The translations under genes were made by a program, and so were the position numbers. From Lama guanicoe (taxonomy: Eukaryota), in assembly GCA_013239625.1 (NCBI GenBank), contig PNXV01004830.1, forward strand, positions 1 to 64,000: 64,000 nucleotides of DNA. Direction: 5' to 3'. This document shows, one piece after another, positions 1 to 64,000 of this stretch. Under the pieces are notes generated by a model. It was not told the origin of the DNA. It did no database searches and was given only the letters and a program-made list of their open reading frames with translations. Numbering within the stretch: the stretch's first letter is position 1; each line of letters begins with the position of its first letter.

Positions 1-108
1 CTTTTGGCCATATGCATAGAATTTTCCAACAAGTTCCCTTATGGAAATGTAACGGGTAAGGATGAATTCTGCTTTGTATCATCATAGAAAAACACTTTCT
101 GTGACTTG

Positions 109-3100
109 GAAAGAAGCCTATATCACGGATCTGAAATAACTTCTCTTAAGTTTGCCCCGAGATTTCAAATTGAACCAAGGTTGGAAATGTAACTGGACAT
201 CATGCCAAGAGAGGTCATAGATGTGGGAGAAGATCTCTCCCTACCAAGCTTCTTGTGCTGCAACTCAGACAATCATTCCAATCTGGGAACCAAATGGTAA
301 AGGTGGAGAAACTTCACAGGTGTCAGGGGAGCACTGACTTTCCACAAGTAGCCTGTGTTCCTGTCCCGAACGGCCTCGGATACAACTCATGATAGAAACA
401 CAAAGAGACCATCAATAGACTCAGATGTTCTGAAGCATTCTAAGCAAGGAGGAAAGAGGATTGTTGGAACGGTACTTCTAATTTCCAGCAGATCAACCCC
501 AACATTCACAGGTGATGCATCTTGGGACTAAAATGAGTGCATAATAATTTCCTTCACCTGCGTTGTTGGTGTAAGAGGATTTTTGTGTTGGGGAAACAAG
601 CCAGAATCCAAGTTCTGGTAGTCCTTTTCACACACTTGCATTGAGTCTGCTCCCTTCATCTCCTCTTGTAATGTCTTAAGGAAAGTCACCTGCATAGTTG
701 GAAATTTGTCAACAGAATGTCTCTTGAAAATGAGGGGCTGTGTAATGCATCTTTTAGGTATCTGCCACTAGAGGAAAGACTTTGTGTGGGAAACCTACTT
801 CTGCCTAGTTGGGATCACATAAGTGGTGGGATTGAAGAACAATTCTATGTCAAAATTGTAATTGAGTCCATTCATTGATGCCCCTGTGAATTCCTGAAGC
901 TCCCCCAAATGAAAGTCTTGATCGAGCAAGTTTCCACATGCTGAAAGGACTACTTGGACTGAATGAAGCACTTTGTATTAGATGCACCCAGGCTTGTAAT
1001 CCCGTTCCCATCTTGGATTTGCATACATGTGAATGTTATCAGGCTTCTGCCCGTTTTCAAATGTGAGGGTTTTGTCTTTGGTTTATGAGCCTGTCTTCAT
1101 ATTCTGTAAAAGTTTACTGCAACCTGAATTTCCTTTCTCAACTTCAGTCATATTGAAATGAGTTATAGCTGGCATGAAGTGTTGGTGAGACAAAGATACT
1201 TTTGAGAGTGTCTCTCCTACACTGATGCCCTGTGTTCCACAGTTTTAGAATCTTTCAATCTTAGTAAACAACTTGAGTTCTGGTGAGTTGACGTGATCCA
1301 AGATTTTGATAGAACACAGCACGCTGGCAAGAACTGTCCATGAGTACTTGGAAACGCCTTTTCACAAGCTCGGCCTCAGTACGCCAGCTTCCCCAAATTT
1401 TGCAATGTCCACAAAAGTCATCCAAAGGAAGAAGCAAAGAATGCTGCTAGCAATCCTCTTTCAATTCATGCCTGCGTCAAACAAATGCTTGCCCTGCATT
1501 CATTTCAGGGACAGAAGGGCCGTGGGATATTCCCATCTTGGGAATTGATGGCAAAATCAGGGATTTTCATGTTTGGCCTGAGCTATCCCTCCATGTTGTG
1601 AAGGAACATCTGGTAAATTAACATTAAGACACCTCGTCTCATCTGAGTCAACAGCAGCTGTTTCAAAATCTAAGAATTATGCTGAATGTTTGGTGCAGAC
1701 AACACCACTTCAGCATTAGTTCTGGTGAACTTCAACTATGTAACTTCCCTATCTGGTGGAATACGATGTGGGACAACTTTTATTGCACTAACATTTTGGG
1801 GACACATTGATCTTCAAGAATGGAAGGGAGCCCATTTGCTCATTTGGATAGGCCTATCTTCATTACCCAATACAGATGTGTTACATCAGCCTTTATGGAA
1901 TTTTGCAGGAAGAAGAGCAAGAAAGAAAACTGCTTGGAGTTTAACCTCTCCTAAATGAGTGCTTGGGTTCAATATATCCTATAACAATTCTCAAATTTGT
2001 ATAAGGCTTTTTTGGAAGAAATTCCCCCCATCATCTTGGTTGCAAATCAGAATATTCTGGAAGTTGGGAAATGGCCGTGTGTCTGTGTTTCACAAGGTCT
2101 TGGCTCCTATTCCAAGTGGATCATAGTTATTCAGATATGTTGAACTAACTTTTTGAATGTGACAGAGATTGTGGAAAGTCATTAATAGGAGAGGCTCTAT
2201 GACCTTCGGCTACATGCACACAACCTTCCAACTTGTTTGCTGCTCAAAATAGAATTTGTAAGAATGATTTCCATCTTGTGCCTTTTTAGGAAAATGGGTT
2301 TCTGTGAATGGGAAAGAAGCCTATGTCTCGGTTCTGAAGCAGTTTCTCTAAACATGATCTTGAGATGCCGAATTGAACACAGCTTGAAACCGATAGTGGA
2401 GAGCATGACAACAATGGTGGTAGAAGTGGGAGAGTTCTTCCTACGCAGCTTATTGTTCTGAATCTCAGACACTTATCCCACACTTGGAATCAACTGGAAA
2501 ATAAGCAAAAACCTCATAGGCCTCATCATGAGCACTGAGATTCATGACTTCCCAAATTAATCTATGTTCCTGCACTGAAAAACCTGGGTGCCAGATCCAC
2601 TTTGGAACAGCCTCAGCCCCTCACTTGACACTGCTTACTGGAAGCATCTGAATGATGGTGCAAAGAAGATTGTTTGGATGGGTGTTGTAATTATGCTCAC
2701 ATCAACACAAACATTGGCAATTGACCTGTACTGTTAATACAATGAGTGTGGGCAATGTCCCTCATTGGCCCTGTCATGATAATGGAGTGTTTGTGTTGTA
2801 GGGAAGCAAGCATAACTACGGGATCTGATAAGCTTTCTCACACTCTTGCAATGAGGTAGGTCACTTCATCTCGGCATCAGTTGTCTTTGGGCAATTGCCC
2901 ACGAAGTTGCAAATATTGCCCACAAAGTGTCTCTTGAGGAAGACGTGCTGTGCAATGCATCTTGTTGGTTTTTATCACTATAGTAAAGATTATGTGTGGG
3001 AAACTTAATTCTGCCTCCTTGGGATCACCATGTTTGAGAGATAGAGATACAATCCAATGTCTTACTTGTGATTGAGGCCATGCATTCAAACCCCCAGTGA

Positions 3101-4564
3101 AATCTCCAAGTTCACCTCACTGAACATGTCGATAGAGAAAGCATCCACTTGCTGATAGGACTTCTTGGACAGGAGAAAGCACTTCATGTTTGATGCACCC
3201 TGTCTTACTTTTGCCACAAATTCACAAGAAGGGAATCTCCCACAGCCCTTCTTTTCCTAATTTAGGCTCAAACACATGATGAAGTTTTCAGTTTTCTGCC
3301 ATTTTTCGAATATGTGGCTTCTCTCTATGGCACATGAGCCTGTCACCATGTTCTGTAAGATTTCATGCAACCTGCCTTCTGTTCCTCAATTTCAGCCATC
3401 TTCGAATGCATACTCATTGGCATCAGTTGTTGGTGTGATCATGAAGTGTGTGAAAATGTCCCCTAGATAGGACGTGCTGTGCACCTCAACTTTTGAACTC
3501 TTGGAAATATGGATACATGTGTGGAGAGGATAAGCTGATTTTATCCCAGGCTTTGGATGCGCAGACTTCTATCTAAGGGAAAGAATGGTCCATTCGTACT
3601 CTTAGATGCTTCTACTGAATTCTGTCCTTCATATATCAGCTTCTACTTGATCTTCTCTGTCCAAAGATAGATCCGAGGAATGGTGCAGTAATGCTCTTTA
3701 AAATGTCACCTTCAGTTCATATCATCTGCCCACAAATGTTTCACATATTGTTTTTTGGAAACAGAAGGGACTTGGGAAATTCCATTCTTGGGATATGATG
3801 CTAAAATTATGAAATTCCATGATTAGTCTGAGGTTCCTTTCATGTCATGAAGGTACATCTGTGACTGTGACATTAAGGACTGCATTTCAGCTCAGCCGAC
3901 AGCAGCTCTTTTGAAAGCTATTAGGAATGCTGAGTTATTGTGCAAAGAAAGCCTCTTCAGTGTTCTTTTATGTTAAATTCACCTTCAGAAACGTCCAGAT
4001 TTGGAGGAATACAATGTAGGCCAATTTTCACTTCACTGCCTTATCGGGGACAGATTGACTTTCAGGGACAGAAGTGAGCCCATCTGCACATTCTCATAGG
4101 CCTGGGTTCTTCATTGAATTCAGATAACTTACTTCAGCTCTCATGAATGTTTCTGTATGATGACTGGCAGAAAAGAAGACAGCTTTGTGTGTACTCTGTC
4201 CAGAATGAGTGGTGTTTCAGTTCAATTTGTCCTGTAACATTTCTCAATTTTGGATAATGCACCTATGAACAATATTCACCCTATCTGTTTCGTTGGAAGA
4301 CAGAGTATTTAAGCATTTGGGAAACGGGTCTATTTCAGTAGTCCACGAAAGCTTGTCCTCTACTACACATGGAATCTGGATTTTATCAGATGTTGAATTG
4401 TCTTTACAAAAGTGAGAAAATCTGTGGCAAGCTGCTTGAAGGAAAGTCTCTGTGATCTTCGGCTATATGCACGGAAACTTCCAACATGTTTCCTTATGGA
4501 AATGAAATGGGTAAGGATGATTTCTGCCTTATTATGTCATGGTTAGGACACTTTCTGTGGCTTG
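109..4564 (+). repeat. HOR dimer (X 109-2311, Y 2312-4564)
   Basis: Anchor spacing. X carries GTTCCCATCTTGGA-type sequence; Y carries the ~40-bp longer CACAAGAAGGGAATCTCCCACAGCCCTTC segment at the same position. Confidence 0.9.
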
Positions 4565-7500
4565 GAAAGAAGCCTATATCCCTGTTCTGAGACATTTTCT
4601 CTCAAATGTCTTCCAAGATATCAAACTTAACCAAGCTTGAAAATTTTCCTGGATGGCATGCCACGGAGTGGTCATAGATGTGAGAGAAGATTTCTCCCTA
4701 CCAAGCTTATTGTGCCAAATCTTTGACAATCATCCCACTCCGGGAACCAAACTGTAAATTTGGAGCAGCTTTGCATGACTCAGGGGAGCACTGAGTTTCC
4801 ACGTTTACCCTAAGTAGCCTGTGTTCCTGTCCTGAATGGCCTTGGCTCCAACTCATCATAAAAACACAAAGAGACCCTCATCAGACCCAGCTGTTATGAA
4901 GAATTCTAAACAAGTATGAAAGAGTATTGTTTGTAATGATCTTCTAATTTCCAGCAGATCAACCCTCATGTACACAGGTGACGAATCTTGGGGATAAAAT
5001 AAGTGCAAAATAATTTTCTTCACATAAGTTGGGTAAGAAAATTTTGTGTTGTGTAAGCAAGCCAAAATCCAAGTTCTGATGATAGTCCTTCTCACACACT
5101 CGCATTGAGTCTGCTCCCTCCGTTTCCTCTAATACTGTTTTTCAGAAAGTCACCTGCGAAGTTGGAAATTTGTCAATTTAATGTCTCTTGAAAATGAAGG
5201 GCTGTGCAATGCAACATTTAGTTATCTGCCACTAGAGGAAATAGTGTATGTGGGAAACCTCCTTCTGCTTGTTGGCAGCACATAAGTCGTGGGGTTGAGT
5301 ACCCATCCTATGATGAAATTGTGAGTGAGGCCACACATTTAAACCCCCTGTGAATACCTGAATCTCCCCACATTGATCGTTTCAATCGAGCAAATTTCCA
5401 CATGCTGAAAGGACTACTTGGACAGAATGAAGCACATTGTGTTAGCTGCACCCAATCATGTAAAACTGTTCCCAAGGTTGGATTTGCATACATGTGTAAG
5501 TTATAGGTCTTCTACCCATTTTGAAACACGCAGCTTTTTTCTTTGGTGTATAAGCCTACTTTCACGTTCCATAAGATTCCACTGTAACCTGAATTTCCTT
5601 CCTCAACTTCAGCCATCTTAAAATGAATTCTTGCTGGCATGAAGTTATGGTGAGAAAAAGGATCTTGTGAGAGTCTTTCCTAATTTGATGCCCTGTGTTC
5701 CACAGTTTAGAATCTTTCACTCTTGGGAACAATTTGGGGTCATGCGGGTTGACATGATCCAAGATTTTGGTAGAGCACAGCTTGCAGGCAAGAACTGTCC
5801 ATGCATACTTGGAGAGGCCTTTTCACAAGTTTGGACTCAGTAGCAAGCTTCCCTAGATTTTATGCAGAAGGCATCCAAGGGAAGAAGCAAAGATTTCTGC
5901 TTGCAGTCCTCTTGCAATTCGGGTCTGCTTCAAATGAATGCTTGCCTTGCGTTTCATTTCAGGGACTGAAGGGCCATGAGATACTCCCTTCTTGGGACTT
6001 GATGGCAAAAGCAGGGATTTTCATGTTTGGCCTGAGTTATCCCTCCATGTTGTGAAGGTACATATGGCAAAGTGACATTAAGACACCTCAGCTCAGCTGA
6101 GTCAACAGAAGCTGCTTCAAAATATGAGGAATGGTGAATGTTCGGTGTAGACAACCCATATGCAGCATTATTTCAGGTAAATTCACCTTCTGTAACTTCT
6201 CTATCTGGAGGAATACAATGTGGTCCAGTTTCCATTACACTGCCTTGTTGGGGACACATTGATCTTCAAGGATGGAAGTGAGCCCATTTACACATTTGGA
6301 AAGACCTCTATTCATTATTCAGTGTAGATAATTTACTTAAACCGTTATGAAGATTTCTGTAGGAAGAAAAGCAAGAAAGAAGATAGCTTGGAGGGTAACC
6401 TCTCCTAAATGAGTTCTTGGGTTCAACATATCCTGTAATAATTTTCAATTTTAGATAAGACATATTTGAAAGAAATTCACTGGTTAACTTTGGTTGCAAG
6501 TCAGAGTATTATGGCAGTTGGGAAGTGGCTGTGTGTCACTGTTCCACAAGATTGTGGTTCCTATTCCAAATGGAATGACAGTATTCCTCTTATTTTGGAC
6601 TAACTTTATGAAAGAGAGGGCAATGTGAAAATCCATTTGTAGAAGAGTCTCTACGACATTCGACTACATGCAAGGGAGATTCCAACATGTTAGTTTCTCA
6701 AACTGGAAAGGGTAAGGATGACTTCTGTCTTGTGCACTTTTGGGAAAAATGAGTTTCTCTGAATGGGAGGAGGCCTATGTCTCAGATCAGAAGAAGATTC
6801 TCTAAACATGATTTTGCGTTGTATGATTGAATCCAGCAAGGAACCATTACTGGGAGCATGCCAACCACGGTGGCTGTCATAGAAGATCTCTGCCTACCCA
6901 GCTTATTATTCCGTATCTCAGTCATCCCACCATGGGAATCAAGTAGAAATCATGCAAGAACCTCGCGGGCCTCATAGTGATCACTGATTTATATGGTTTC
7001 CCAAATTATTCTATGTTCCTGCCCTGAATGTCCTGGGCTCCAGCTCCTCTTTGGAACAACCACAGACCCTCACTTGACACTACTTACAGGAAGAATCCGA
7101 ATGAAGCTGCAAAGAACATTGTTTGAATGGGTCTTTTAATTTCTCTTACATCAACCCAAATGTTGGCTGTTGACTCGTACTAGGAATAAAATAAATGAGG
7201 AAAATGATCCTCAACTGCGTTGTCATGATAATGGAGTGTTTGTGTCATTGGGAAGCAAGCATAAATATGAGCTATGATACGCTTTCCCACACTCTCACAG
7301 TGAGGTAGGTCACTTCATCTCTACTATCGTTGTCTTTATGCAATTGCCAGTGAATTTGGAAACATTGCCAAAAGAATGTCTCTTGAGGAAGACGTGCTGT
7401 GCAATGCATCTTGTTGGTTTTTATCACTATAGTAAAGATTATGTGTGGGAAACTTAATTCTGCCTCCTTGGGATCACCATGTTTGAGAGATAGAGATACA

Positions 7501-9016
7501 ATCCAATGTCTTACTTGTGATTGAGGCCGTGCATTCAAACCCCCAGTGAAATCTCCATGTTCACCTCACTGAACGTGTTGATCAAGGAAATTTCCAATTG
7601 CAGAAAGGACTACTTGGACAGGGGAAACCACGTCATGTTAGGTGAACCCAGTCTTACTTTGGCCACAAATTCACAAGAAGGGAATTTCCCACAGCCCTTC
7701 TTTTCCCACTTAAGTTTCATACACATGAGGAAATTTTCAGGCTTCTATAATTTTTTTAAAAATGCGGCTTCTTTCATTGGCACACAAGCCTATCACCACA
7801 TTCTATAAGAATTCTCTTCAACCTGCCATTCATTCCCCAACCTCAGCCATCGTCGAATGCATGCTCATTAGCATCAGCTGACAGCGAGATCAAGAATCTT
7901 GTGAAAATATCTCCTAGATAGGATGCTCTGTGCTACCAAATTTTAAAGTCTTTCAAATATGGGATACACTAGGGGAGAGGTTAAGTTGACCTTATCCCCA
8001 ACTTTGGAAGTGCAGAGTTCTGCCCAATGGGAAGAACATACCGTCCATACTCTGAGAGGCTTCTATTCAAGTTTGTACTTAGTATTTCAGCTTCTTCTTG
8101 ATCTTCACAGTCCACAGAGTGAATCCAAGTAAATGTGCAAGGGATGCTCTTTGGAAAGTCATCTAAACATCATATCAGCTGTGCAAAACAATTTCACATA
8201 CAGTTCTACTGGGAACAGAAGGGATTTTGGACATTCCCTTCTTGGCATTTGATCATAAACTAGGGATTTCCATGTTTTGCTGAAGTTCCCTGCATGTTAT
8301 GATGGCACATCTGGGAAGGTAATACTAAGGGCTGCATTTCAGTTTAGCCAAAAGAAGCTCTTTGGAAATCTATTATGAAGGCTGAGTTATTGGGGCAAAG
8401 AAACCCTCTTCAGTGTTTCTTTAGCAAATTTCACCTTCAGAAACATCCCTACTTGGAGGAATAAGATGTGGAACAATTTTCAACTCACTGACTCTTTGTG
8501 GACACATTGATTTTCAGGGTCAGAAGTGAGCCCATCTACACAATCTTATAGACCTCTGTTCTTCATCTAACTCAGACAATTTACTTCAGCTCTCATGAAC
8601 GTTTCTGTAAGAAGAATAGCACAAAGGAAGACAGCATTGTTTGTATTCTGTCCTGAATGAGTGGAGCTTCGGTTCATTATATCCTGTAACACTTCTCAAA
8701 TTTGGAGAAGGCACTTTTGAAGAAAATTCAGCTCATCTCATTTGTTGCAAGACAGAGAATTTAGGAATTTGGGAAAAGAGTCTCTTTCAGTGTTCCACAA
8801 AACATTGGACTCTACTGCACAAGTAATCACGGTTTTCTTAGTCATTGAACTGTCTTTTCAAAAGTGAGAAAATCTGTGGCAAGCTGTTTGCAGGAAAGTC
8901 TTTGTGACTTTCGGCTACATAGACAGAACCTTTCAAGATGTTCCCTTATAGCAAAGAAACAGGTAGGTTTGATTTCTGCCTTGTGCCATTATGGTAATAT
9001 CAATTTCTGAGACTTG
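4565..9016 (+). repeat. HOR dimer (X 4565-~6765, Y ~6766-9016)
   Basis: Anchor spacing and X/Y diagnostic segments. Confidence 0.9.
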
Positions 9017-12000
9017 GAAAGAAGCCTATATAACGGTTCTGAATCAATTTCTCTCTATATTGTCTCAAGATGTCAAATTGAACCCAACTTGAAAATTTTC
9101 CTGGACATGATTCAAACAGAAGTGATAGAACTGGAAGAAGATATCTCCCTACCCAGCTCCTTGTGCTGAATTTTGTCAATCACTCCACTCTGGAAACAGA
9201 ATGGTAAATTTGGAGCAAATTTGCAAGCCTCATGGGAGCCCAGAGTTTCCAAGGTTTCCCTAAGTAGCCTGCATTCCTGTCCTGAATGGCCTTGGCTCAA
9301 TCTCTTCATAGAAACACAATCAGCCCCTCAGCAGACCCAGCTGTTATGAAGCATTCAAAGCAAAATTGAAAGAGGATTTTTTGAACATGCCTTCTACTTT
9401 CAGTCAGATCAACCAAAATGTTCACTTATGATGCATTTTTGGAACACAATGATTGTGAAAAAAATTTCTTCACATGCATTTTTGGGATAAGATATTTTTG
9501 TTGTTGTTGGGGAAGTAAGCCAAAATCCTACTTCTGATAGGCCTTCTTACACACTCTTATTGAGTCTGTTCCCTTCATCTCTTGTTGTAGTGTCTTTAGG
9601 AAAGTCACATGCGAAGTTGGAAATGTTGACTATAACCTCTTGAAAATGAGGGGCTGTGCAATTCATCTTGTAAGTATTCGTCACTAGAGGAAAGAGTGTG
9701 TGTGGGAAACATCTTTCTGCAATCTTGGGATAATGTAAGGGGTGCGATTGAGGAACCATCCTCCATCTTCATTGTGACTGAGGCCTTGCATTAAAACCCC
9801 CTGTGAATTCTCGAACCTCCCCCCAATGAAAGTCTCGATCGAGGAAATTTCCACATGATGAAAGGACTTCTTGGACAGAATGAAGCAGTTTGTGTTAGCT
9901 GCACCCAGTCTTGGAAATCTGTTCCCATCTTGGAATTGAGCACATGTGGAAGATTTTGGTCTTCTACCAGTTTTCAAACATGAGAAATTTGTCTTTTACC
10001 TATGATCATGTCTTCATGTTCCATTAGATTACATGCAACCTAACTAAATTTCCTCTATGTTAGCCATCTTGAAATGCATTCCAGCAGGCATGAAGTAATG
10101 GCTAGACAAAGATTCTTGTGAGACATTTTCTCGTATAGGACACCTTGTGTTCCACAGGTTTTAGAATCTTTCACACTTGAGGAACAATTTGGGGTTGGGT
10201 GAGTTGACATGATCCATGATTTTGGTAAAGCAGAGCACACTGGCAAGAACTGTCCGTGTGTACTTGGAAAGGATTTTGTACAAGTTTAGCCTCAGTACCC
10301 CAGCTTCAACTGATATTGCAAGATTGACAGAAGGCATCCAAGGGAAGAAGCAAAGATTGGTGCTAGCAATCACCTTGCAATTTGGGTGTGTTTCAAATGA
10401 ATGCTTGCCCTGCATTTCATTTCAGGGGTAGTAGAGACGTGAGATACTCACTTCTTGGGAATTGATTGCAAAATCAGGGATTTTCAAATTTCACATGAGC
10501 TATCCCTCCATGTTGTGAAGGTACATCTGGCACAGTGACATTAAGACACCTCATCTCAACTGAGACAACAGCAGCTGTTTCAAAATCTATGAGAGATGCT
10601 GAATGTTTTGTGCAGACAACCCATATTCAACATTAGTTCAGGTGAAATTCACCTTCTGTATATTCCCTATTTGGAGGAATATGACATCAGCCAGTTTTAA
10701 TTACACTGCATTGTTGGGGACACAATGATCTTCAAGGACGGAAATGAGGCCACTTGCATATTCGGAAAGGCCTCTGTTCATGATAAAATGTAGATATGTT
10801 ACTTCAGCCATTTGAAGTTTTCTGTAAGAAGAATAGCAAGAAATAAGACAGCTTGGAGGGTAACATCACCTAAATGAGGGCTTGAGTTCAATATATCCTG
10901 TAACATTTCTCCATTTTGAATAAGGCATATTAGAAAGAAATTCAATCCATCACCTTGGTTGCAAATTAGAGTATTTCTGGCAGGTAGGGAACAGCTTTGT
11001 GTCAGTGTTCTACAAGGTCTTGGCTTCTATTCCAAATGGAATCACAGTTTTTCTCTTATGTTGAACTAACTTTATGAAGGAGACAGGGAATGTGGAAGGC
11101 AATTTGTAGGAGGGTGTCCACGACTTTTGGTTAAGTGCATGGGACCTTCCAACATATTCACTGTACAAAATGGAATGGGTAAGGGTGATTTCTGTCTAGT
11201 GCCTTTTTGTGAAACCTGGTTTCTGTGATTGGGAAAGAAGCCTGTGTCCCTGTTCTGAAGCAGTTTCTCTAAACATGATCTTGAGATGTCAAATTGAACC
11301 CAGCTTGAAACCTATTCTGGAGAGCATGCCAACAACGGTGGCAGAAGTGGGAGAAGATCTCTTCATACTCAGTTTATTGTTCCAAAACCCAGACAGTCGT
11401 CCCACTCTGGGAATCAAGTGGAAAATATGCAACAGCCTCTTGGGCCTCATCGTGAGCAATGAGTTCCATGGTTTTCCAAATTAATCTATGTACCTGCCCT
11501 GAATAACTTGGGTACCAGCTCTTCTTTGGAACAGTCACAGACCCTCACTTGACACTGCTTACTGGAAGCATCCAAATAAAGGAGCAAAGAAGATTGAATG
11601 GGTCTTGTAATTTTGCTCACATCAACACAAACGTTGGCACTTGATCCATAATGTTAATAAAATGAATGCGGACAATGTACCTTATCTGTGCTGTCGTGAT
11701 AATGGAGTGTTTGTGTTGTTGGAAAGCAAGCACAACTACGAGCTCACACTACCACAGTGAGGCAGGCCACTTCATCTCTGCCTCAGTTGTCTTTTGGCAA
11801 TTGTCTGCGATGTTGAAAACTTTCCCAACAGAGTGTCTCTTGTGGAAGAAGTGCTGTGCAATGCATCTTGTTAGCTTTTGTCACTAGAGGAAGGATTGTG
11901 TGTTGGAAATATCCGTCTGCATTTTTGTGATCACCAATTTTGAGGGACTGAGAAACAATCCAATGTGTTACTAGTGATTGAGGCCTTACATTCAATCCCC

Positions 12001-17423: not shown

Positions 17424-17430
17424 TACTGAT
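17420..17430. other. Inversion breakpoint between oppositely oriented satellite blocks
   Basis: Forward-orientation ATTTTCAGGGACA is followed after about 1 nt by ACTGATTAAAAACTGAGAAATAGTCATAATTCCCATTAACAGAAACCC, which matches the reverse-orientation copy at ~21884-21930. Confidence 0.92.
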
Positions 17431-23409: not shown

Positions 23410-23681
23410 CCTGGCACCCAGGTTGTTAAGTGTACAAACATAGAATAATTTGGGAAAATGTGGAACTCATTGTTCACGACGATGCCATTGAGGTTCTTGC
23501 ATATCTTCTGCTTGATTCCCATGGTGGACGTTTGTCTGAGGTTTGGAACAATAAGATGTGTATGATGAGATATTCTCCAACTTCTGTCACCGTTGTTGGA
23601 TTGTTCTCCAGAAACGGTCTCAATCTGGGTTCAATTATGGAAACTCAAGATCTTGTTTAGAGAAACTTATTCAGATGAGAC
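21903..23681 (-). repeat. Truncated chimeric unit (X part 21903-22795 fused to Y part 22796-23681; ~2.7 kb missing)
   Basis: Anchor spacing is only 1779. X-type TCTTTGCTTTTTCCC is joined directly to Y-type AAGAGTAAACTGGGTTCATGTAACACG. Confidence 0.88.
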
Positions 23682-54790: not shown

Positions 54791-57700
54791 ATAGGTTTCT
54801 TTCTCATTCACGGAAACCCATTTTCCAAAAAAGACCCAAGACAGAATTCATCCTTACCCATTTAATTTTGACCAGCGAATTTTTGGAAGGTCCTTTGCAT
54901 TTAGCTGAAGGTCTTAGAAACTCTTCTTCAAATGTCTCTGCATTCAATCTCTTTTTCATAAAGTTAGGTCAACATAAGTGAAAAACTGTGATTCCAAGTG
55001 GAATACGAACGAATACCTTGTTGTACACTGATAGACAGCCATTCCCAATTGCCAAATTTTTCTGACTTGTAATCAATTTGATGGTGGGCAGTTCTTCAAA
55101 AATGCCTTATCCAAAATTGAGAAGTATTATATGATATACTGAACCGAAGAACTCATTTAGGATAGATTACTTTCCAAGTTGTCTTCTTTCTTGCTATTCT
55201 TCCTACAGAAATCTTCATGAGAGCTGAAGTACATAGGTAAGTTGGATGATGAAGTTTTGCCTCCAAATATGCAAATGGGCTCACATCCATCCTTGAAAAT
55301 CAATGTGTCCCTAACAAGGCAGTGTAAGGAAAACTGGCCCACAATGTATTCTTCCAAATAGGGAAGTTACAGAAAGTGAATTTCACCTGAACTAACGCTT
55401 AGGAATATTTTTCTTTACAAAAATGTCAGAATTTCTCATACATTTTGAATGAGATGCTCTTGACTCAGCTGAGGAGAGGTGTCTTGACTCAGCTGAGGAA
55501 GGTGCCAGATGTACCTTCAAAATATGGAGGGATAGCTCAAGCCAAACATGAAAAACCCAGCTTTGGCCATCAATTCCCAAGACAGAGTATCCCAGAGCCC
55601 TTGTGTTCCTGAAATGAAACACATGGCATGCATTTGTTTGAAGCGGACCTGAATTGCAAGAAGCCTTCTGTGGACATTGCAAAATCCGGAGAGGCTGGGA
55701 TACAGAGGCTGAACTTGTGAAAATGCCTTTCCAAGTATGCATGGACAGTCCTTGCCAGTGTGCTGTGTGCTACCAAAATCTTGGATCAGTTCAAAAGCCT
55801 GACCCCAAATATTTTCTCAAGGGTGAAAGATTCTAAAACCTGTGGAACACAGGGCGTCATATCTAGGAGATAGCCTCACAAGAATCTTTGTCTAGCCATA
55901 ATTCATGCCAGCTAGAATGTATTCAAAGATGGTTGAAATTGAAGAAGAAATTCAGGTTGCAGTGAAACCTTACAGAACATGAAGTCAGGCTCGTATGACA
56001 AAGAAAAAAGCCTCACTTTTGAAAAATGTTGGAAGACCGAAAACTTGCACATGTCCTCAATTCTAAAATGGGAACATGTTTCCATGACTGTGTGCAACTA
56101 ACAGGAAGTGCTTCATTCTGTCCAAGTAGTCCTTCCAGTATGTGGAAATTTGCTCGATCGAGAAGTTCATTTGGGGAGCTTCCAAAATTCACAGGGGGTT
56201 TCAATGCATGGCCTCACTCACAAGTTACACATATGATTGGTTCTCAGTCCCACCACTTACATGATTCCAAAAGGCATAAGTATGTTTCCCACACACGCTC
56301 TTTCCTCTTCTGACAAATAATAACACAATGCATTGCACAGCCCCTCATTTTCAAGAGACATTCTGTCAAAAATGATTCCAACTTCGCAGGTGACTTTCCC
56401 AAGAGAGTAGATGAAGGGAGCGGATTTAATGCGAATGTGTGAGAAGGCCTAACAGAACTTAGATTTTCGCTTGCTACACCAGCAGAAATATTCTCTTATC
56501 CCGACAATGCAGATGAAGGAAACGTTTTCACCCTCATTGTATTCCCAAGATGCGTCTGTGTGAACGTTAAGGTTGATCTGCAGCAAATTAGGAGACCCGT
56601 TGAAACAGTCTTCTTTCCTCCATGCTTAGAATGGTTCATAACAGCTGCATCTGTTGAGGGGCTGTTTGTGTCTCTATGATGATTTGGGGTGAAGGCCGTT
56701 CAGGACAGGAATACAGGATAATTTGGGAAACCATGGAAAGTCACTCCTCCCCTGAGGCCTGCGTAATTTCTCCAATTTTTCCATTTGGTTCCCACAGTGG
56801 AATGATTCTCTAAGATTCATCAAGAGGAGCTGGGTAGGTTGAGATCTTCTCCCAATTCTATCACCTCTCATGGTATGCTCTCCAGGAACATTTTAAAGCT
56901 GGGTTCAATTTGACACCTCGAGTCATAGTTAAGAGAAATTGTTTCAGACCCTGGATATAGGCTTCTTTCCAAGTAACAGAAACTGTGTTTCCCCATGAAG
57001 GCACAAGTCATAAATCATCCTTAAAGGTTTCATTTCCATAAGGGAACATGTTGGAAGATTCTGTGCATGTAGCCGAAGGTCAGAGTGATTTTCCTGCAAA
57101 TGGCTTGCCGCAGTATTTATCACTTGTGTAAAGACAGTCCAACATCTGACAGAACCATGATTCCATGTGAAGTAGGGGCCAAGATTTTGTGAAACACTAA
57201 AATAGACCCATTTCCCACATGCCTTAATACTGTGTCTTGCAACAAACAGATGGGGTGATTTTTCATCAAACGTGCCTTCTCCAATATTGAGAATTGTTGT
57301 ATTTTGTATAGAACCGAAGCTCGATTCATTCATGAGAGTGTACACCCAAAGCTGTCATCTTTTGCTCTATTCTTCTTACAGAAAAGTTCTTGAGAGCTGA
57401 CATAAATTATCTGAACTTGATGAAGGAAAAAGGCCTATGAGAATGTGCAGATGGGCAGACTTCCATCTCTGAAAATCAATGTGTCCCCAAAAAGGCACTG
57501 CTGTGAAAATTGGCCCAAATCTTATTCCTCCTAATAGAAAAGTTTCTAAAGGTGAATTTCACCTAAAGTAACACTGAAGAGGGTTTCGGTGTACCAATAT
57601 TTCAGCATTCTTAATAGCTTCCCAAAGAGCTGCTTTTGGCTGAGTTGAAATGGAGTCCTTATTTTCACCTTACCAGATGTCCCTTCATAGCATTAAGGAA

Positions 57701-59116
57701 ACCTAAGGACAAACATGGAAATCCCTGGTTTGATCATAAATTCCCAGAGGGGAATTTCCCAAGTCAGTTCGTTTCCACAAGAAAACCATATGTGAAGCAT
57801 TTGTGTGCAGCTGATATGAACTGAAGATGACTTTCTAAAGAGCATTCTTAGCAACTTTCCTTGGATTCTCTCTGTGGACAGTGAACAGCTAGGATAAGCT
57901 TATGTACTTAGGACAAACAAGAGCAAAAGCCTCTCAGTGCATGGACGGACGGACTGTTCTCCCACTTAGACAAAACTCTGTGCTTCCGAAATGTGAGATA
58001 AATTCAACTTAACTTCTCACCAAGTGTATCCCAGATTGTAAGATTTTAAAACCTGAGGCACACAGAAAGTCCTAACTAGAAGACATTTTCACAAGATCCT
58101 TGAACTCGCAGTCAACTGATGCTTAAGAGAATGCATTTGTGGATGGCTGAAGATGAGGAAGGAAAGGCAGTTTACAGTGACATCTTATGGAACATGAATA
58201 CAGGCTCGTACACCAAAGACAACAGTCTCACTTTTGAAAAGTTGCAGAAGACCGAAAACTAGCAGATGTCCTCATTTCCAAGATGGGACTAGTTTTCCAA
58301 GAGTGGGTCCAGCGAAAACAATGCGCTTCATTGTGTCCAAAAGTCCTTTCAGCATGTGGAATTTTCATCAAACGAGAATTACAATGGGAGAAGTTTCAAG
58401 AATTTCAGGGGGTTTTAATTCATGGCCTCACTCAGAAGTTAGATGTAGAATGGCTGCTTGTTCCCACTACTTACATGATCCTAAGAAGGCAGAAGGAAGT
58501 ATCCCACATACACTCTTTCATATAGTGACAAACACCTACAAGATTCATTGCACTGCCTCTCAGTTTCAACAGACATTCTGTCAACAATGCTTCCTACTTA
58601 GCAGGAGTCTTTCCTAAAGACATTACAAGAGTAGATCAAGTGAGCTGACTCAATGCAAGTGTGTGAGAAGGCCTATCAGAAGTTGGATTTTGGCTTTCTT
58701 TCCCAAGAGACAATACAGGTGTAGAAAATTATTTCACACTCATAGTATGACATAGATGCAGCATTTTGAATGTTAGATTTGATCTGATGGAAAGTACAAA
58801 ACCCGCTCAAACAATACATTTTCCACCTTCAATATAAAGCTTTGTAACAGCTGGGTCTGCTGTGGGGCTGTTTTTATTTCTATGATGAGTTGGAGCCATG
58901 CCATTCAGGACAGGAACACAGGCTACTTAGGGAGACCGTGAAAACTCAGGGATACCCTGAGGCCTGCAAAGTTGCTCCAAATTTTCCCATTGGTTCCCAG
59001 ATTTGAATGATTGTCTAAGATTTGGTACAGGAAGCTGAGTAGGGAGAGGTCTTCTCCCACTTCTATCACATTTCTTTGAATGCTGAACAGGAACTTACTC
59101 AAGCCTGGCTCAATTT
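54791..59116 (-). repeat. X monomer (54791-56956) followed by a Y/X hybrid monomer (56957-59116, switch at ~58170-58187)
   Basis: Y diagnostics run up to GGAAAGGCAGTTT (~58173). X diagnostics start at CTTATGGAACATGAATACAGGCTC (58184), and the Y-specific 40-bp insert is absent. Confidence 0.82.
55458..55504. repeat. Local 24/23-bp tandem duplication TCTTGACTCAGCTGAGGA(G)AGGTG
   Basis: Seen directly; also appears as SSAESRHLSSAESR in ORF 55392..55742. Confidence 0.9.
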
Positions 59117-59126
59117 CGTATTCCTC

Positions 59127-59143
59127 CATGTAGGGACATTTCT
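59127..59143. repeat. Target-site duplication, left copy (CATGTAGGGACATTTCT, 17 bp)
   Basis: Identical to 59804-59820. It is present once in uninterrupted Y monomers (e.g. ~39816-39832). Confidence 0.95.
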
Positions 59144-59174
59144 TTTTTTCTTTTTTAAAAAAGAAATATGTGCT

Positions 59175-59180
59175 TTTATT
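59175..59180 (-). promoter_or_regulatory. Polyadenylation signal AATAAA of the retrocopied mRNA
   Basis: TTTATT on + at canonical distance from the poly(A) remnant. Confidence 0.8.
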
Positions 59181-59588
59181 CGAATGCTTTTAGACTTTAA
59201 TTATGCCAATTTTGGTAATCAAATTATTCATTTTTCAGTAAGTAATGACACTATAGAACCACAATACTGGTCCAGCATCTTGTCTTCACTTTTCCTTTAA
59301 AGCAATAAATGGAACGTGAGGAATCAGAAAGCACTTGCAGGCATCAGTTAATCCAAGATACTGGCTTCTTAGTTCCCAAAGCACTCGCAAAGAAAACCAT
59401 CGCGGGGCACAGAGGGATGGAAGCACTTCTAATAACTGGAATCTCACGAATGTGTGTCTACATCAAGTCTCATAGGCTGTTTTTTTTTATCCTTTACTTG
59501 GTCCCTTTTTATCCCTCAAATACTAGTTTTTCCTGTGATTTTTTTGCCCTCGAAGTACAAAAAGTATGAAATATAAACAAACTTTTGC

Positions 59589-59648
59589 ATTGTACACTTG
59601 GAAGTGTACAATTCAAGCTTTATAGATTTATCTGCTTGCAGATAAATC
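59589..59648. other. Two adjacent perfect 11-bp inverted repeats inside the retrocopy
   Basis: ATTGTACACTT-GG-AAGTGTACAAT (59589-59612) and GATTTATCTGC-TT-GCAGATAAATC (59625-59648). Confidence 0.9.
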
Positions 59649-59803
59649 CTATCCAATCGTGGGCAATTCAGTAAGATATATAATATATCAGGGCACAGAA
59701 AGAACTAACGCCTACTTCTTTTCATTACACATAAGATTCAAATATTTAGTCTAAAGAAAAACTTTAAATCATCTTGGCTCTCCTGTGCATTCTCATGTTG
59801 ATA

Positions 59804-59820
59804 CATGTAGGGACATTTCT
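59804..59820. repeat. Target-site duplication, right copy
   Basis: Identical to 59127-59143. Satellite sequence resumes directly after it (GAATTGAATT...). Confidence 0.95.
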
Positions 59821-62800
59821 GAATTGAATTGTGCCTAATGTAACACTGAAGAGTGTTTGTTTGCACCAATAACTCAACATTCCTTATAGCTTTCCAAAGA
59901 GCTGCATTTGGCTGAGCTGAAGTGCAGACCTTAATGTCACCTTCCCAGATGTACCTTCATAACTTGCAGGGAACCTCAGTCCAAACATGGAAATCCCTGC
60001 TTTAATCATCAAATCACAAGAAGGGAATTTCCTAAATCCCTTCTCTTCTCCAAAAGAACCATATGTGAAATATATGTGTGCAGCTGATATGAAGTTATTA
60101 TGACTAACTAAAGAGAATTCTTTGCACCTTTCCTTGGATTCTCTCTGTAGACCATGAAGAAGAAGGGGAAGCGGATGTACTGAGCACGAACTTGAGCAGA
60201 AGCCTCTCAGAGTATGGACGGACAGTTCTTCCCCTTAGGCAAATCTCTGTATTTCTAATGTCTGGGATAAAATCAGCTAAACATCTCCCCAGGTGTATCC
60301 CAAATTTGCAAGACTTTAAAATTTGAGGCTCACAGAGCATTCTGTAAAGGATGTTTTCACACGATTCTTGAACTCACCATCAAGTGATGCTAACGTATAT
60401 GCATTTGAAGGTGGCTGAGGTAGAGGAACGAAATGCAGGTTGCAGTTTAGTCTTACAGAACGTGGTGATATGCTCCTGTGCCAAAGAGAGAAGCTGCATA
60501 TTCTAAACTTGGCAGAAGAGTGAAAACTTCCTCATGTGTTTCAACCTAAAGTGGGAAAAGAAGTGCTGCATGAGGGTCTCTTCTTCTGAATAAGTGTCAA
60601 AAGTATTACTGGGTTCATGTAACACAAAGTGCTTTCTCCTGTCCAAGTAGTCCTTCCCAGCAAGTGGAGGTATGCTCGATCAACACGTTCAGTGAGGTGA
60701 ACTTGAAGATTTCACTGGGGGTTTGAATGCACAGCCTTAATCACGAGGAAGACAGGATTATTTCTCAATCCCACAAATATTGTGATGCCAAGGAGACAGA
60801 TGGACTTTTCCCACACACAATCTTTCCTAGTGACAAAATCCAACAAGATGCATTGCACAACACCTCTTTCTGAAGAGACACTCTTTTGGCAATGTTTCCA
60901 AGTTCGCAGGCAATTGCCTATAGACCACTGAGTCACAGATAATTGACCTACCTCACTGTGAGAGTGTGAGAAAGCTTATCATATCTCAGTTACGCTTGCT
61001 TTCCAACAACACAAACACTCCATTATCATGACAGAACAGATGAGGTACATTGTCCACACTCTGCATTCCCAGTACGAGTCAAGTTCCAATGTTTGGGTTG
61101 ATGTGAGCAAAATTAACAGACCCATTCAAGCAATCTTGTTTGCACCTTCATTCAGATGCTTGCAGTAAGCAGTGTCAAGGTGGGGCTGTGTCTGTTCCAA
61201 AGAGGAGCTGGATCCCATGTCTCTCAGGGCAGGAACATAGAATAATTTGGGAAGCCATGGATGTCAGTGCAGATGAGGAACGCTGTATTTCAGGTATGAG
61301 TCAGAAGACAACATTTGGGTTGATGTGAGTGAAATTACATGACCCATTCAAACAATCTACCCTGCACATTCATTCAGATTCTTCCAGTAAGCAATGGCTG
61401 TTTCAAAGAGGAGCTGGTGCCCAGATCATTAGGGCAGGAACATAGAATAATTTGGGAAACTGTGGAACTCAGTGCTCACGACGAGGCCTGAAATGTTTTT
61501 GCATATATTCCACTTGATTCCCAGGGTGGGACGTATGTTTGAGATTTGGAAAAATAAGATGAGTATGAAGAGATATTCAACTTCTGCTGCTATTGATGGC
61601 ATGCTCTCCAGAAAAGGTTTCAAGCTGGGTTCAGTTTGACACCTCAAGGTCATATTTAGAGAAATTGCTTCAGAACCGAGACATAGGCTTCTTTCCCATT
61701 CACAGAAAACCCATTTCTTCAAAAAAGGCACAAGACAGAAATCATTCTTACCTCTTCCATTTCAAGCAGTGAACATTTAGGAACATCCTGTGCATGTATC
61801 TGAAGGTCGTAGAGACTCTCTTACAAAAGGATTTCTGCATTCCTTCTCTCTTTCATAATGTTACTTCAATATAAGAGAAAAACTGTGATTCCATGTGGAA
61901 TAGCAGCCAAGATTGTGGAACACTAACACACAGCTGTTTCCCATCTTCCACATTAATCTGACTTGCAAGCAAGATGATAGAGTGAAATTCCTTCACACAT
62001 GCCTTACCCAAATTGAGAATTGTTATAGAATATATTGAACCCAAGCACTCATTTAGGAGAGGTTATCCTCCTAGCTCTCTTCTTTCTTGCTATTTTTTTC
62101 TACAGAAGACTTCCTAAAGTCTGACAAAGTATATCTATATTGGATGATGAACAGAGGCCTTTCTGAATGTGCAAATGGGCTCACTTCTGTAGTTGAAGAT
62201 CAATGTGTACCCAACAAGGCAGTGCAATGAAAACTGTCTGATGTCGTATTCCTCCAAACAGGGGAGTTACAGGAGGTGAATTTCACTTGAACTAAAGCTG
62301 AAGATGGGTACTCTGCACCAAACATTCAAGGTTCCTCAAAGATTACAAAAGAGTTTCTATTGACTCAGCTGACATGAGGTGTCTTAATGTCACTTTACCA
62401 GATGTACCTTCAACACGTGGAGGGATAGCTCAGGCCAAACATGAAAATCCCAGCTTTTCCCATCAATTCCCAAGAAGGGAGTACCCCATGGCCCTTCTGT
62501 TCCCGAATTAAACACAGGGCAAGAATCCATTTGAAGCAGACCCGAATTGACAGATGATTGCTAGCAGCATTCTTTGCTTATTTCCTCAGATGCCATCTAT
62601 GGATCTTGCAAAATCTGCTGAAGCAGGGTTACTGAGGCGAAATTCTGGAAAGGCCTTTTCAAGTAGGCAAGGACAGTTCTTGACAGCATGCTGTGCTCTT
62701 ACAAAATTTTGGATCAAATCAAATCATCCGACCCCAAATTGTTTCCAAGAGTGAAAGATTCTAAAACCTGTGGAACACAGGGCATCTTATCTAGGATATA

Positions 62801-64000
62801 GTCTCACAAGAATCTTTGTCTTGCCATAACTTCATGCCAGATAGAATGCACTTCAAGATGGTGAATTTGAGGAAGGAAAGTCAGGTTGCAGTGAAAGGTT
62901 ACAGAACATGAATACAGGCTCATACACCAAAGACAACAGCCTCACATTTGAAAACTTGCAGAAGATAGAAAACTTCCATATGTGCTCAATTCCAAGATTG
63001 GAAAAGTTTTCCAAGACTCAGTCCAGCTAACACAAAGTGCTTCATTCTGTCCAAAAGTCCTTTCAGCATGTGGAAATTTCATCAATCAAAACTTTCATTG
63101 GGGGGAGGTTTGATTAATTCACAGGGGGTTTTAATGCATGTCCTCACTCACTAGTTAGAAGTAGGATGGTTCCTGATTCCCACCAATTACGTGATCACAA
63201 CAAGGCAGGCGGATATTTCCCAAACACACCCTTCCATATAGTGACAAACACCTAAAAGATTCATTGCACAGCCCCCATTTACAACAGACATTCTGTCAGC
63301 AAATTTCCCAACTTTGCAGGTGACTTTCCTAAAGATAATTCAAGGGGAGATAAAGGGAGAGGACTGAAAGTGAGTGTGTGAGAAGGCCTATCAGAAGTTG
63401 GATTTTCACTTGCTTCCCCAACACAAAAGTTCTCTTATCACAACAACGCAGGTGAAGGAAATTATTTCACACTAATTGTATTGCAAAGATGCATCATATT
63501 TGAACGTTAGGGTTGATCTGACAGAAATTACAAGACCCATTCTTTCCATCAGCTTTCCATCTTTATTAGAATGGTTTGTAACAGCTGGGTCTGATGAGGG
63601 GCTGTTAGTTTTTCTATAATGAGTTGGAGCAAAGGGCTTTCAGAATAGGAACACAGGCTACTTAGGGAAACCGTGGAAACTCAGGGATCACCTGAGGCTG
63701 CGAGGTGTCTCCAAATTTTCCATTTAGATCCCAGATATGAATGATTGCCTAAGATTTGGCACAAGAAACAGTAGAGAAAGGTCTTCTCCCACTTATACCA
63801 CGTCTCTTTGAATGCTGTCCAGGAACATTTTCAAGCCTGTTTCTATTTGACATCTCCATGCAAAGCTGAGAGAAATTTTTTTCAGAACCAGGATACAGGC
63901 TTCTTTCCAAGTCACAGAAAGTGTATTTCCCATGATGTCACAAGGCAGAAATAATCCTTACCCATTTCATTTCCATAAGGGTACATGTTGGAAGAGTCCT
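59821..64000 (-). repeat. Remainder of the interrupted Y monomer (with a ~230-bp internal reiteration at ~61032-61486), a complete X monomer (61683-63894) and the start of the next Y
   Basis: Anchors at 61683 and 63895; diagnostic segments. Confidence 0.88.

What the first reader, a model, noticed from the sequence alone, without database searches (positions are those of the whole stretch)
1..64000. Unrecognised complex macrosatellite with a ~2.2-kb monomer filling the window
Seen: about 29 tandem copies of a high-complexity ~2.2-kb unit that run off both window ends, with copies visibly diverged (roughly 10-20% within a type, estimated by eye). Known: kb-scale macrosatellites such as D4Z4, DXZ4 and RS447 often carry a gene or a chromatin function. 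I do not recognise this unit as any of them, nor as an L1, SINE or ERV. Inference: a lineage-specific satellite amplified from unique or ancient sequence, possibly (peri)centromeric or sex-chromosomal.
Basis: partly seen in the sequence, partly recalled or inferred. Interest (0 to 1): 0.75.

Follow-up and report, generated by a model that had tools for sequence, protein, structure and literature searches.

The report
Decayed nested-repeat mammalian satellite array
This is non-coding satellite DNA, probably from a mammal, in which an ancient ~247-base repeat is nested nine-fold and then two-fold into a 4.5-kb unit that is now decaying, an ordinary kind of DNA whose family I could not name but whose unusual mutation pattern resembles that of human centromere repeats.

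Summary
The array is real (28.3 unit-equivalents), but it is not a unit amplified from unique DNA. Each 2.2-kb unit is nine diverged copies of a ~247-bp monomer, about 40% identical to each other. Two unit types, X and Y (63% identical), alternate, so the true period is a 4.45-kb 18-mer. Same-type copies are only 72-85% identical. The array carries an inversion (17423/17425), deletions, a duplication, an X/Y chimera and a 660-bp polyadenylated retrocopy with a 17-bp target-site duplication. That insert and 5-6-fold CpG decay point to a mammal. No protein, RNA gene or codon signal was found. Transitions/transversions are 0.71-0.79, against about 2 reported for human euchromatin and 0.55 for active human alpha satellite. 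Best reading: a relic, divergent higher-order-repeat satellite, probably pericentromeric heterochromatin that has largely stopped homogenising. Host and family stay unidentified. Primers for cervid satIII, dog CarSat1/Sat1CF and four alpaca satellites did not match. Llama (248 bp) and hyrax (246 bp) repeats match in length but were not aligned. Dfam, Repbase and nt were not available. Verdict: new member of a known kind, of modest interest.

The parts
1..17423 (+). Left arm: X/Y units head-to-tail (X 1-2204, Y 2205-4455, X 4456-6658, Y 6659-8907, X 8908-11123, Y 11124-13360, X 13361-15558, Y 15559-17423 cut at unit position 1876 of 2261)
17423..17425 (.). Inversion junction: Y position 1876 (+) meets Y position 140 (-) with one base between; the two arms are not mirror copies
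   Evidence: tree
17425..64000 (-). Right arm: same X/Y array on the minus strand, interrupted by the features below
4456..8907 (+). Example of one whole 18-mer higher-order unit (X 9-mer + Y 9-mer, 4452 bp); majority sub-units are 242-252 bp, one of them 281 bp
3209..3258 (+). Y-specific ~45-50-bp insert in sub-unit 4/5, an inverted copy of a stretch ~500 bp downstream (84% to X 1507-1556); present in Y units, absent from X
17425..26019 (-). Younger local sub-family: X10/X12d/X14 at 82-85%, Y09f/Y11/Y13d at 88-92%
22023..23802 (-). Shortened dimer (1780 bp): Y 1-1012 joined to X 1436-end at 22794/22795
21180..21627 (-). 448-bp tract identical to 22962-23409, inside ~85% flanks (gene conversion or assembly artefact)
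4183..4346 (+). 164-bp tract identical to 13089-13252, inside a 573-bp stretch at 93.7%
2928..3079 (+). 152-bp tract identical to 7377-7528
57080..59116 (-). Chimeric unit: X in its first half, Y in its second, best switch at 58127-58130; breaks the X/Y alternation; lacks X 1-167
59127..59143 (-). Target-site duplication, copy 1 (17 bp, identical to 59804-59820)
59144..59803 (-). 660-bp non-satellite insert (34% GC) with AATAAA ~18 nt before a short A tail: 5'-truncated retrocopy, probably of an mRNA 3' end; source gene not identified
59585..59648 (-). Two adjacent near-perfect hairpins in the insert (15-bp and 11-bp arms); folding z = -4.26; no Rfam family
59804..59820 (-). Target-site duplication, copy 2; the insertion site reads TTC|AGAAA on the insert strand, an L1-endonuclease-like site (motif recalled)
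59804..61804 (-). Y unit with ~220 bp repeated (Y 319-541 twice, junction 61279-61284, copies ~75% alike); ends at Y 1820, 11-12 bp past the left target-site copy, where ~610 bp are missing
61805..64000 (-). Last X unit, running off the window end; the copy closest to the X majority (10%)

Best explanation
A relic (divergent) higher-order-repeat satellite array of a mammal, non-coding and methylated, most likely pericentromeric heterochromatin left behind by younger arrays. History: (1) A ~247-bp monomer array diverged to ~40% identity between monomers [shown]. (2) A block of nine such monomers was amplified as a 2.2-kb unit [shown as structure; amplification by unequal exchange or replication-based copying is inferred]. 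(3) Two neighbouring 9-mers drifted to 76% identity, one gained a ~50-bp inverted templated insert, and the pair was amplified as a 4.45-kb 18-mer [shown]. (4) Homogenisation mostly stopped, and each copy gathered 10-18% substitutions with a transversion-rich spectrum [divergence and spectrum shown; loss of homogenisation inferred from the star-like tree]. (5) The array decayed by inversion, deletion, out-of-register exchange and an L1-type retrocopy insertion [shown; L1 agency inferred]. Short conversion-like tracts still occur [shown; cause open]. Its present role is probably structural heterochromatin only. That it once carried a centromere is inferred by analogy with alpha satellite (about 0.45).
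For: Periodicity at multiples of ~247 bp appears in the majority units and also in the raw window. A leave-one-position-out HMM scores 18 of 18 held-out sub-units above the best of 50 base shuffles and 17 of 18 above the best of 200 dinucleotide shuffles. A profile of the 18 sub-units gives 260 hits across the window at a median spacing of 245, with 0 inside the insert. The tree has terminal branches with median 0.12 and inner branches 0.004-0.045 within types. C>T is 0.31-0.34 at CpG against 0.04-0.07 elsewhere. Ti/Tv is 0.71, 0.73 and 0.78 at least 10 columns from indels, and 0.79 between the X and Y majorities; a simulated true ratio of 2.1 is read as 1.93 by the same pipeline. Divergence above 10% plus deletions, inversions and insertions match the description of divergent HORs in PMC9549924 (passages). 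Low Ti/Tv matches alpha satellite in PMC13684623 (section 14). No coding or RNA signal was found.
Against: No flank, chromosome position, CENP-A data or homogeneous sister array is visible, so 'pericentromeric' and 'former centromere' rest on analogy. There is no CENP-B box excess (3 one-mismatch hits; 19 of 100 shuffles reach 3). Sub-unit identity is low (40% against 30% for shuffled alignments), and one sub-unit fails the stricter null. The wrong-period control did not discriminate, because offset pieces still match locally, so the period rests on the lag analysis. PMC13684623 reports that Ti/Tv rises in older alpha arrays; I did not see those values, so 0.7-0.8 may not fit a long-dead layer. 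The host is unknown, so its background Ti/Tv is unmeasured. One small tract gave Ti/Tv 1.27 (34 changes).
Confidence: 0.7

Rival explanations
1. An old, decayed layer of an already catalogued satellite family (for example the llama 248-bp or hyrax 246-bp candidate centromere repeat, or canid Bsp/CarSat, 734-738 bp = 3 x ~246). This is compatible with the best explanation and removes family-level novelty.
For: 4 of 104 chordate rows in PMC4053949 Table S1 are 245-250 bp: llama 248 (45% GC), hyrax 246 (36%), coyote and dog 249. The majority units here are 44% GC. Bsp is described as ~734 bp 'composed of divergent segments' (PMC13103737 passage). Lag 740 is the highest peak.
Against: The published primers tested matched no better than shuffled primers: 4 dog, 4 cervid and 8 alpaca, with one marginal count (Vpa08R, 11 sites against a shuffle maximum of 10). 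The sub-unit identity matrix shows no 3-mer grouping. By eye the dog '249' entry looks like sequencing adapter and the coyote entry like a short-period repeat. Three conserved 8-mers on both strands gave 10 scattered hits, none in the llama or hyrax entry (low power).
Confidence: 0.4
2. A gene- or function-bearing macrosatellite like D4Z4, DXZ4 or RS447, amplified from unique sequence.
For: Unit size is 2-4.5 kb, and Tandem Repeats Finder sees no short period.
Against: The unit is internally periodic. ORF counts equal Markov expectation (26 ORFs of at least 110 aa against a mean of 27.2), apart from one 275-aa ORF that exceeds the simulated maximum of 240 but is not shared and has no homologue. 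Stops are shared in all six frames, there is no 3-periodicity, and 1-bp deletions dominate. Conservation is flat along the unit. CpG o/e is 0.22.
Confidence: 0.07
3. A non-centromeric heterochromatin block (sex-chromosomal, subtelomeric or interstitial) that never bound a kinetochore and grew by repeated unequal crossing over.
For: Nested periods arise in any tandem array under unequal exchange (established knowledge). There are no CENP-B boxes. Kilobase satellites in alpaca occur both near centromeres and interstitially (PMC13751797).
Against: The transversion-rich spectrum and the disorder pattern match centromeric alpha-satellite layers, although their specificity to centromeres is not established.
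Confidence: 0.35
4. The monomer derives from three C2H2 zinc-finger coding repeats (3 x 84 = 252 bp), i.e. a ruined zinc-finger array.
For: Length is close, and the best-conserved core resembles linker-coding DNA by eye (recalled motif).
Against: The profile score is 11.0 against a null mean of 12.1, with 39 of 60 shuffles equal or higher. Simulated decayed fingers score 20-86 (24 of 24 above the null maximum of 18.6). There is no 84-bp autocorrelation.
Confidence: 0.03
5. Divergence and spectrum are sequencing or assembly error.
For: Deletions outnumber insertions 228 to 65, and three exact tracts sit inside diverged copies.
Against: There are 26-27 substitutions per indel. Only 42 of 153 1-bp deletions lie in runs of 3 or more (27% against 20% background). 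The error-free X-versus-Y majority comparison gives the same Ti/Tv (0.79). CpG decay is biological. Error could still explain the exact tracts.
Confidence: 0.04

Closest known systems
Divergent higher-order-repeat (relic) alpha-satellite arrays of primates (PMC9549924, PMC2729386)
   Same: Diverged monomers grouped in a higher-order unit; intra-array divergence over 10%; deletions, inversion and insertion; low Ti/Tv as in alpha satellite (PMC13684623).
   Different: Monomer is ~247 bp, not 171; monomers only ~40% alike; two nested levels (9, then 2); no CENP-B boxes. It works like these arrays but is not a member.
Hierarchical mammalian satellites with old sub-repeats (cervid/bovid satI with 31-bp sub-repeats, PMC7288315; mouse major satellite, recalled)
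   Same: A long unit built by successive rounds of divergence and re-amplification of a short repeat.
   Different: Sub-repeat is 247 bp, nearly erased, and invisible to Tandem Repeats Finder.
Cervid satellite III (2.2 kb, PMC7288315)
   Same: Unit length 2.2 kb.
   Different: 51-52% GC against 41% here (44% majority); 0 of 4 primers match; satIII contains L1/RTE pieces, whereas this unit is fully tiled by 247-bp sub-units.
Canid CarSat1/Bsp (737-738 bp) and CarSat2 (1466 bp) (PMC3422206)
   Same: Lengths are near multiples of 246; Bsp is said to consist of divergent segments (PMC13103737).
   Different: About 51% GC; 0 of 2 CarSat1 primers match; no 3-mer grouping here; no 2.2- or 4.45-kb period in the dog family table. 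Full-length alignment not done.
Llama 248-bp and rock hyrax 246-bp candidate centromere repeats (PMC4053949 supplement)
   Same: Monomer length; llama GC 45% against 44% for the majority units.
   Different: No higher-order structure reported for them; sequence relationship untested beyond three 8-mers.
Macrosatellites D4Z4, DXZ4, RS447
   Same: Kilobase unit size only.
   Different: Those are homogeneous (DXZ4 abstract) and, as recalled, GC/CpG-rich and gene- or CTCF-bearing; this array is CpG-poor, 77% identical within type and non-coding.

Membership tests
Divergent (relic) higher-order-repeat satellite array, as a kind | Unit made of several diverged monomers repeated in fixed order | tested here: met
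   9 x ~247 bp, then X+Y; same-position X/Y 68-82% against ~40% between positions
Divergent (relic) higher-order-repeat satellite array, as a kind | Intra-array divergence over 10% | tested here: met
   15-28% pairwise
Divergent (relic) higher-order-repeat satellite array, as a kind | Structural disorder: deletions, inversions, insertions | tested here: met
Divergent (relic) higher-order-repeat satellite array, as a kind | Once homogeneous, then mutated faster than its age allows | tested here: inconclusive
   Star-like tree and low Ti/Tv fit; no independent dating
Divergent (relic) higher-order-repeat satellite array, as a kind | Lies at the edge of a homogeneous, centromeric array; lacks CENP-A | not testable with these tools
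   The window holds no flank; no eukaryotic genome collection
Primate alpha satellite | ~171-bp monomer | tested here: not met
   No peak at 171 or 342; period ~247
Primate alpha satellite | CENP-B boxes (younger families only) | tested here: not met
   3 one-mismatch hits, chance level
Gene-bearing macrosatellite (D4Z4/DXZ4/RS447 type) | Near-identical copies | tested here: not met
   Mean 77% within type
Gene-bearing macrosatellite (D4Z4/DXZ4/RS447 type) | ORF or RNA gene in the unit; CpG-rich (recalled) | tested here: not met
Gene-bearing macrosatellite (D4Z4/DXZ4/RS447 type) | Transcription or CTCF binding per unit | not testable with these tools
   No expression or ChIP data
Cervid satellite III | 2.2-kb unit | tested here: met
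   X 2216, Y 2261 majority columns
Cervid satellite III | 51-52% GC and published primer sites | tested here: not met
   41%/44% GC; 0 of 4 primers
Canid CarSat1/Bsp | 737-738-bp unit | tested here: inconclusive
   A lag peak at 740, but only as 3 of 9 equidistant sub-units
Canid CarSat1/Bsp | ~51% GC and published primer sites | tested here: not met
   0 of 2 CarSat1 and 0 of 2 Sat1CF primers above shuffles; primers have little power on a distant relative
Canid CarSat1/Bsp | Full-length sequence homology | not tested
Llama 248-bp / hyrax 246-bp candidate centromere repeats | Monomer length 246-248 bp | tested here: met
   2216/9 = 246; profile length 247
Llama 248-bp / hyrax 246-bp candidate centromere repeats | Sequence homology to the published consensus | not tested
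   Consensus seen but not aligned; three 8-mers found no hit in these entries
Alpaca VpaSat08/09/11/12 (5.3 kb, 54-56% AT) | Unit length and primer sites | tested here: not met
   Period 4.45 kb; 0 of 8 primers with best match above the shuffle maximum
Zinc-finger-derived satellite | C2H2 finger pattern at 84-bp spacing | tested here: not met
Transposon- or ERV-derived tandem repeat | RT, integrase, transposase, gag or env remnants | tested here: not met
   0 of 161 ORFs of 72 aa or more at a Pfam cut-off; DNA-level Dfam search not possible

The most novel reading that the evidence does not exclude
An uncatalogued mammalian centromeric satellite family, unrelated to alpha satellite, that independently evolved nested higher-order repeats (247 bp x 9 x 2) and left alpha-like relic layers. 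Its Ti/Tv of 0.7-0.8 at every level of the hierarchy would show that the transversion-rich mutation process reported in 2026 for human alpha satellite is a general and long-lasting property of mammalian centromeric satellites.
Probability: 0.25. Interest if true: 0.62.

Novelty: new member of a known kind. Interest (0 to 1): 0.36.

Why it matters
As a class it is ordinary: nested satellites and decaying higher-order arrays are well described. Two points have value. First, what looks like a complex macrosatellite born from unique DNA is an old short-monomer satellite whose sub-repeat standard tandem-repeat tools miss, which is a caution for satellite catalogues built on long consensus units. 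[quoted passage not shown] This array gives a non-alpha test case (0.71-0.79; T>A and C>A each 21% of changes), and it becomes decisive once the host and its background spectrum are known.

Tried and rejected
Coding repeat or pseudogene cluster: 26 ORFs of 110 aa or more and 135 of 72-109 aa gave no Pfam hit at a curated cut-off (best E 0.003, a Borrelia DUF). Two ORFs (275 and 179 aa) had no homologue among 192 and 19 candidates, near-length proteins only. 3-periodicity reached p < 0.05 in 2 of 40 windows, chance level. miRNA/snoRNA/tRNA cluster: no Rfam hit at gathering level in the window, no tRNA, and no conserved island. Prokaryotic origin: one 4.45-kb dimer had no match in plasmids or phages. 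The bacterial genome collection was not scanned; the viral and metagenome contig collections stayed unchecked. Zinc-finger origin: rejected with a power check. Shorter sub-period inside the 247-mer: none above the shuffle 95th percentile. Fold-back palindrome at the inversion: rejected, the arms are not mirror-related. Singleton-only Ti/Tv (0.60, 0.69): discarded because simulation showed a downward bias (true 2.1 read as 0.79). Wrong-period HMM control: uninformative. Named families: cervid satIII, dog CarSat1/Sat1CF and alpaca VpaSat08/09/11/12 primers were negative; 8 of the 26 alpaca primers were tested, chosen for AT content. Crocodilian satellitome passages showed no matching unit. Ten literature searches found no description of a 247-bp 9-mer/18-mer. 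The library lacks most subscription papers, so this is weak evidence. The insert's source gene was not identified.
Full report
Observation. The window is 41% GC with CpG o/e 0.22. Self-comparison shows a dominant period of 4.44 kb with multiples, and 7737 14-mers shared with the reverse strand. Six natural units used as queries cover 98.6% of the window; the only large gap is 59117-59803. Two unit types alternate. Identity is 73-85% for X-X (91 pairs), 72-84% for Y-Y (66 pairs) and 58-67% for X-Y (168 pairs). There are 28.3 unit-equivalents, 25 of them full length. Positions 1-17423 run on +, and 17425-64000 on -.

Hidden monomer. Tandem Repeats Finder (maximum period 500) reports only 3 trivial short repeats. 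The majority-state X and Y units nevertheless autocorrelate at lags near 249, 493, 739 and 983; in Y the last is 1028, which is 983 plus the Y insert. Smoothed 5-mer recurrence peaks at 248, 493, 740, 983 and 1231 (counts 123-152) exceed the highest value in 100 dinucleotide shuffles (121). The raw window, with no majority string, shows peaks at 243-248, 494, 739-740 and 978. Iterated profiles cut the dimer into 18 sub-units of 242-252 bp, one of 281. They are 40% identical between positions (30% for shuffled alignments) and 68-82% identical at the same position in X and Y. With a position withheld from both types, 18 of 18 held-out sub-units beat the best of 50 base shuffles and 17 of 18 beat the best of 200 dinucleotide shuffles. 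A control with wrong cut numbers did not discriminate, because offset pieces still align locally. The 18-sub-unit profile finds 260 hits in the window at a median spacing of 245, none in the insert. The hierarchy is therefore 247 bp x 9 x 2, and the unit did not come from unique DNA.

No gene. ORF numbers equal a third-order Markov expectation (26 against 27.2 at 110 aa or more). The longest ORF, 275 aa, exceeds the simulated maximum of 240 but is private to one copy and has no homologue; nor has a second ORF. None of 161 ORFs reaches a Pfam cut-off. Stops shared by at least half the copies occur in all six frames, deletions are mostly 1 bp, and there is no codon periodicity. Rfam and ARAGORN find nothing, and conservation is flat along the unit. 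A zinc-finger origin, suggested by 3 x 84 = 252 and a recalled motif, scored at null level, while simulated decayed fingers were all detected.

History and decay. The tree separates X from Y and is star-like within types, with a median terminal branch of 0.12. Supported local clades include X10-X20 plus X31, Y08 with Y11-Y21, and X10+X14. A younger sub-family occupies 17425-26019 (82-92%). Lesions: the inversion; a 1780-bp shortened dimer at 22023-23802; a ~220-bp repeat near 61280; a ~610-bp deletion at 59116; and an X-to-Y chimera switching at 58127-58130, which is what an exchange out of dimer register would leave. Y carries a ~50-bp insert that is an inverted copy of sequence ~500 bp downstream. 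Three exact tracts of 448, 164 and 152 bp far exceed the ~45 bp expected. They are gene conversion or polishing artefacts, and I cannot tell which.

Host clues. The 660-bp insert lies between identical 17-bp direct repeats and ends in AATAAA plus a short A tail, at a TTC|AGAAA site. By established knowledge this is L1-type target-primed retrotransposition of an mRNA end. With C>T at CpG of 0.31-0.34 against 0.04-0.07 elsewhere, a therian mammal is the likeliest host. This is inference, not identification.

Mutation spectrum. Polarised against the type majority: C>T 27%, C>A 21%, T>A 21%, T>C 15%, C>G 9.5%, T>G 7%; Ti/Tv 0.71; strand-symmetric. Away from indels the ratio is 0.73 (X) and 0.78 (Y). 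Three closer pairs give 0.77-0.83, the X-versus-Y majority gives 0.79, and one 562-site tract gives 1.27 on 34 changes. Simulation shows the pipeline recovers 1.93 from a true 2.1; the singleton estimate was biased and dropped. Sequencing error is unlikely (26-27 substitutions per indel; 42 of 153 1-bp deletions in runs). PMC13684623 (preprint; passages and section 14 read; figures and supplements not seen) gives about 2 for euchromatin and 0.55 for active alpha satellite, rising in divergent and monomeric arrays, and leaves other satellites open. PMC9549924 (passages) defines divergent HORs as partly ruined arrays with over 10% divergence, deletions, inversions and insertions. PMC2729386 (passages) proposes hypermutability after homogenisation stops. 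The window fits that description as a kind. It is not alpha satellite: the monomer length is wrong and there is no CENP-B box excess.

Family search. No eukaryotic DNA collection was available, so Dfam, Repbase and nt stayed unsearched; plasmids and phages gave no match. Cervid satIII shares the 2.2-kb length but is 51-52% GC (PMC7288315, passages), and its 4 primers do not match. Dog CarSat1 (738 bp) and CarSat2 (1466 bp) are near multiples of 246 (PMC3422206, passages and supplementary table 1; PMC13103737, passages), but they are ~51% GC and 4 dog primers do not match. In PMC4053949 Table S1, 4 of 104 chordate rows are 245-250 bp. The two Canis entries look unreliable by eye, leaving llama (248 bp, 45% GC) and hyrax (246 bp, 36%). 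Their consensus sequences were seen but not aligned, so membership is open; a search of that supplement with three 8-mers on both strands gave only chance-level hits. For alpaca (PMC13751797; parts 1-4 of 8 and the spreadsheet, whose sequence cells are cut at 400 characters; slide supplement unreadable), 8 of 26 primers were tested and none matched. That paper set centromeric arrays aside. PMC10900743 (passages) was not relevant. Ten searches found no paper describing this structure.

Verdict. A real, non-coding, nested higher-order satellite in decay, most likely a relic pericentromeric layer in a mammal (0.7 for the overall reading, about 0.45 that it once carried a centromere). It is a new or at least unidentified member of a known kind, with a fair chance (about 0.4) of belonging to a catalogued family. 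Interest 0.36, down from 0.75. What remains of interest is the buried 247-bp monomer and the transversion-rich spectrum outside alpha satellite.

Noticed in passing
window 59585-59648 (- strand, inside the insert): Two adjacent near-perfect hairpins in the retrocopied 3' end (folding z = -4.26, 0 of 200 shuffles as stable; no Rfam family). Possibly a conserved 3' UTR structure of the unidentified source gene.
   Followed up: partly
window 59116-59143: A ~610-bp deletion begins only 11-12 bp beyond the left target-site copy of the retrocopy; it may be linked to the insertion or its repair.
   Followed up: no
window 21180-21627/22962-23409, 4183-4346/13089-13252, 2928-3079/7377-7528: Exact identity tracts inside 75-85% diverged copies; two are close to short-read length, so polishing artefacts are possible.
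   Followed up: partly
window 1-17423 versus 41587-57079: Left-arm units are slightly more similar to the far right block than to the units next to the inversion, which hints at displaced or layered blocks.
   Followed up: partly
window 61805-64000: The last X unit is the least diverged (10% from the majority) and groups with the X10-X20 clade rather than with its neighbours; a younger layer may start beyond the right edge.
   Followed up: no
window 55458-55504, 23793-23823, 32329-32357: Three small private tandem duplications of 15-24 bp in single copies.
   Followed up: no
PMC4053949 supplementary file 1: By eye the domestic dog '249-bp centromere repeat' entry looks like sequencing-adapter sequence. 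The colugo entry shares one short stretch with the conserved core of the sub-unit, at chance level.
   Followed up: no
PMC3422206 supplementary table 1: Minor dog satellites of 501, 743 and 990 bp are near multiples of ~248 bp; a length coincidence only, sequences not seen.
   Followed up: no
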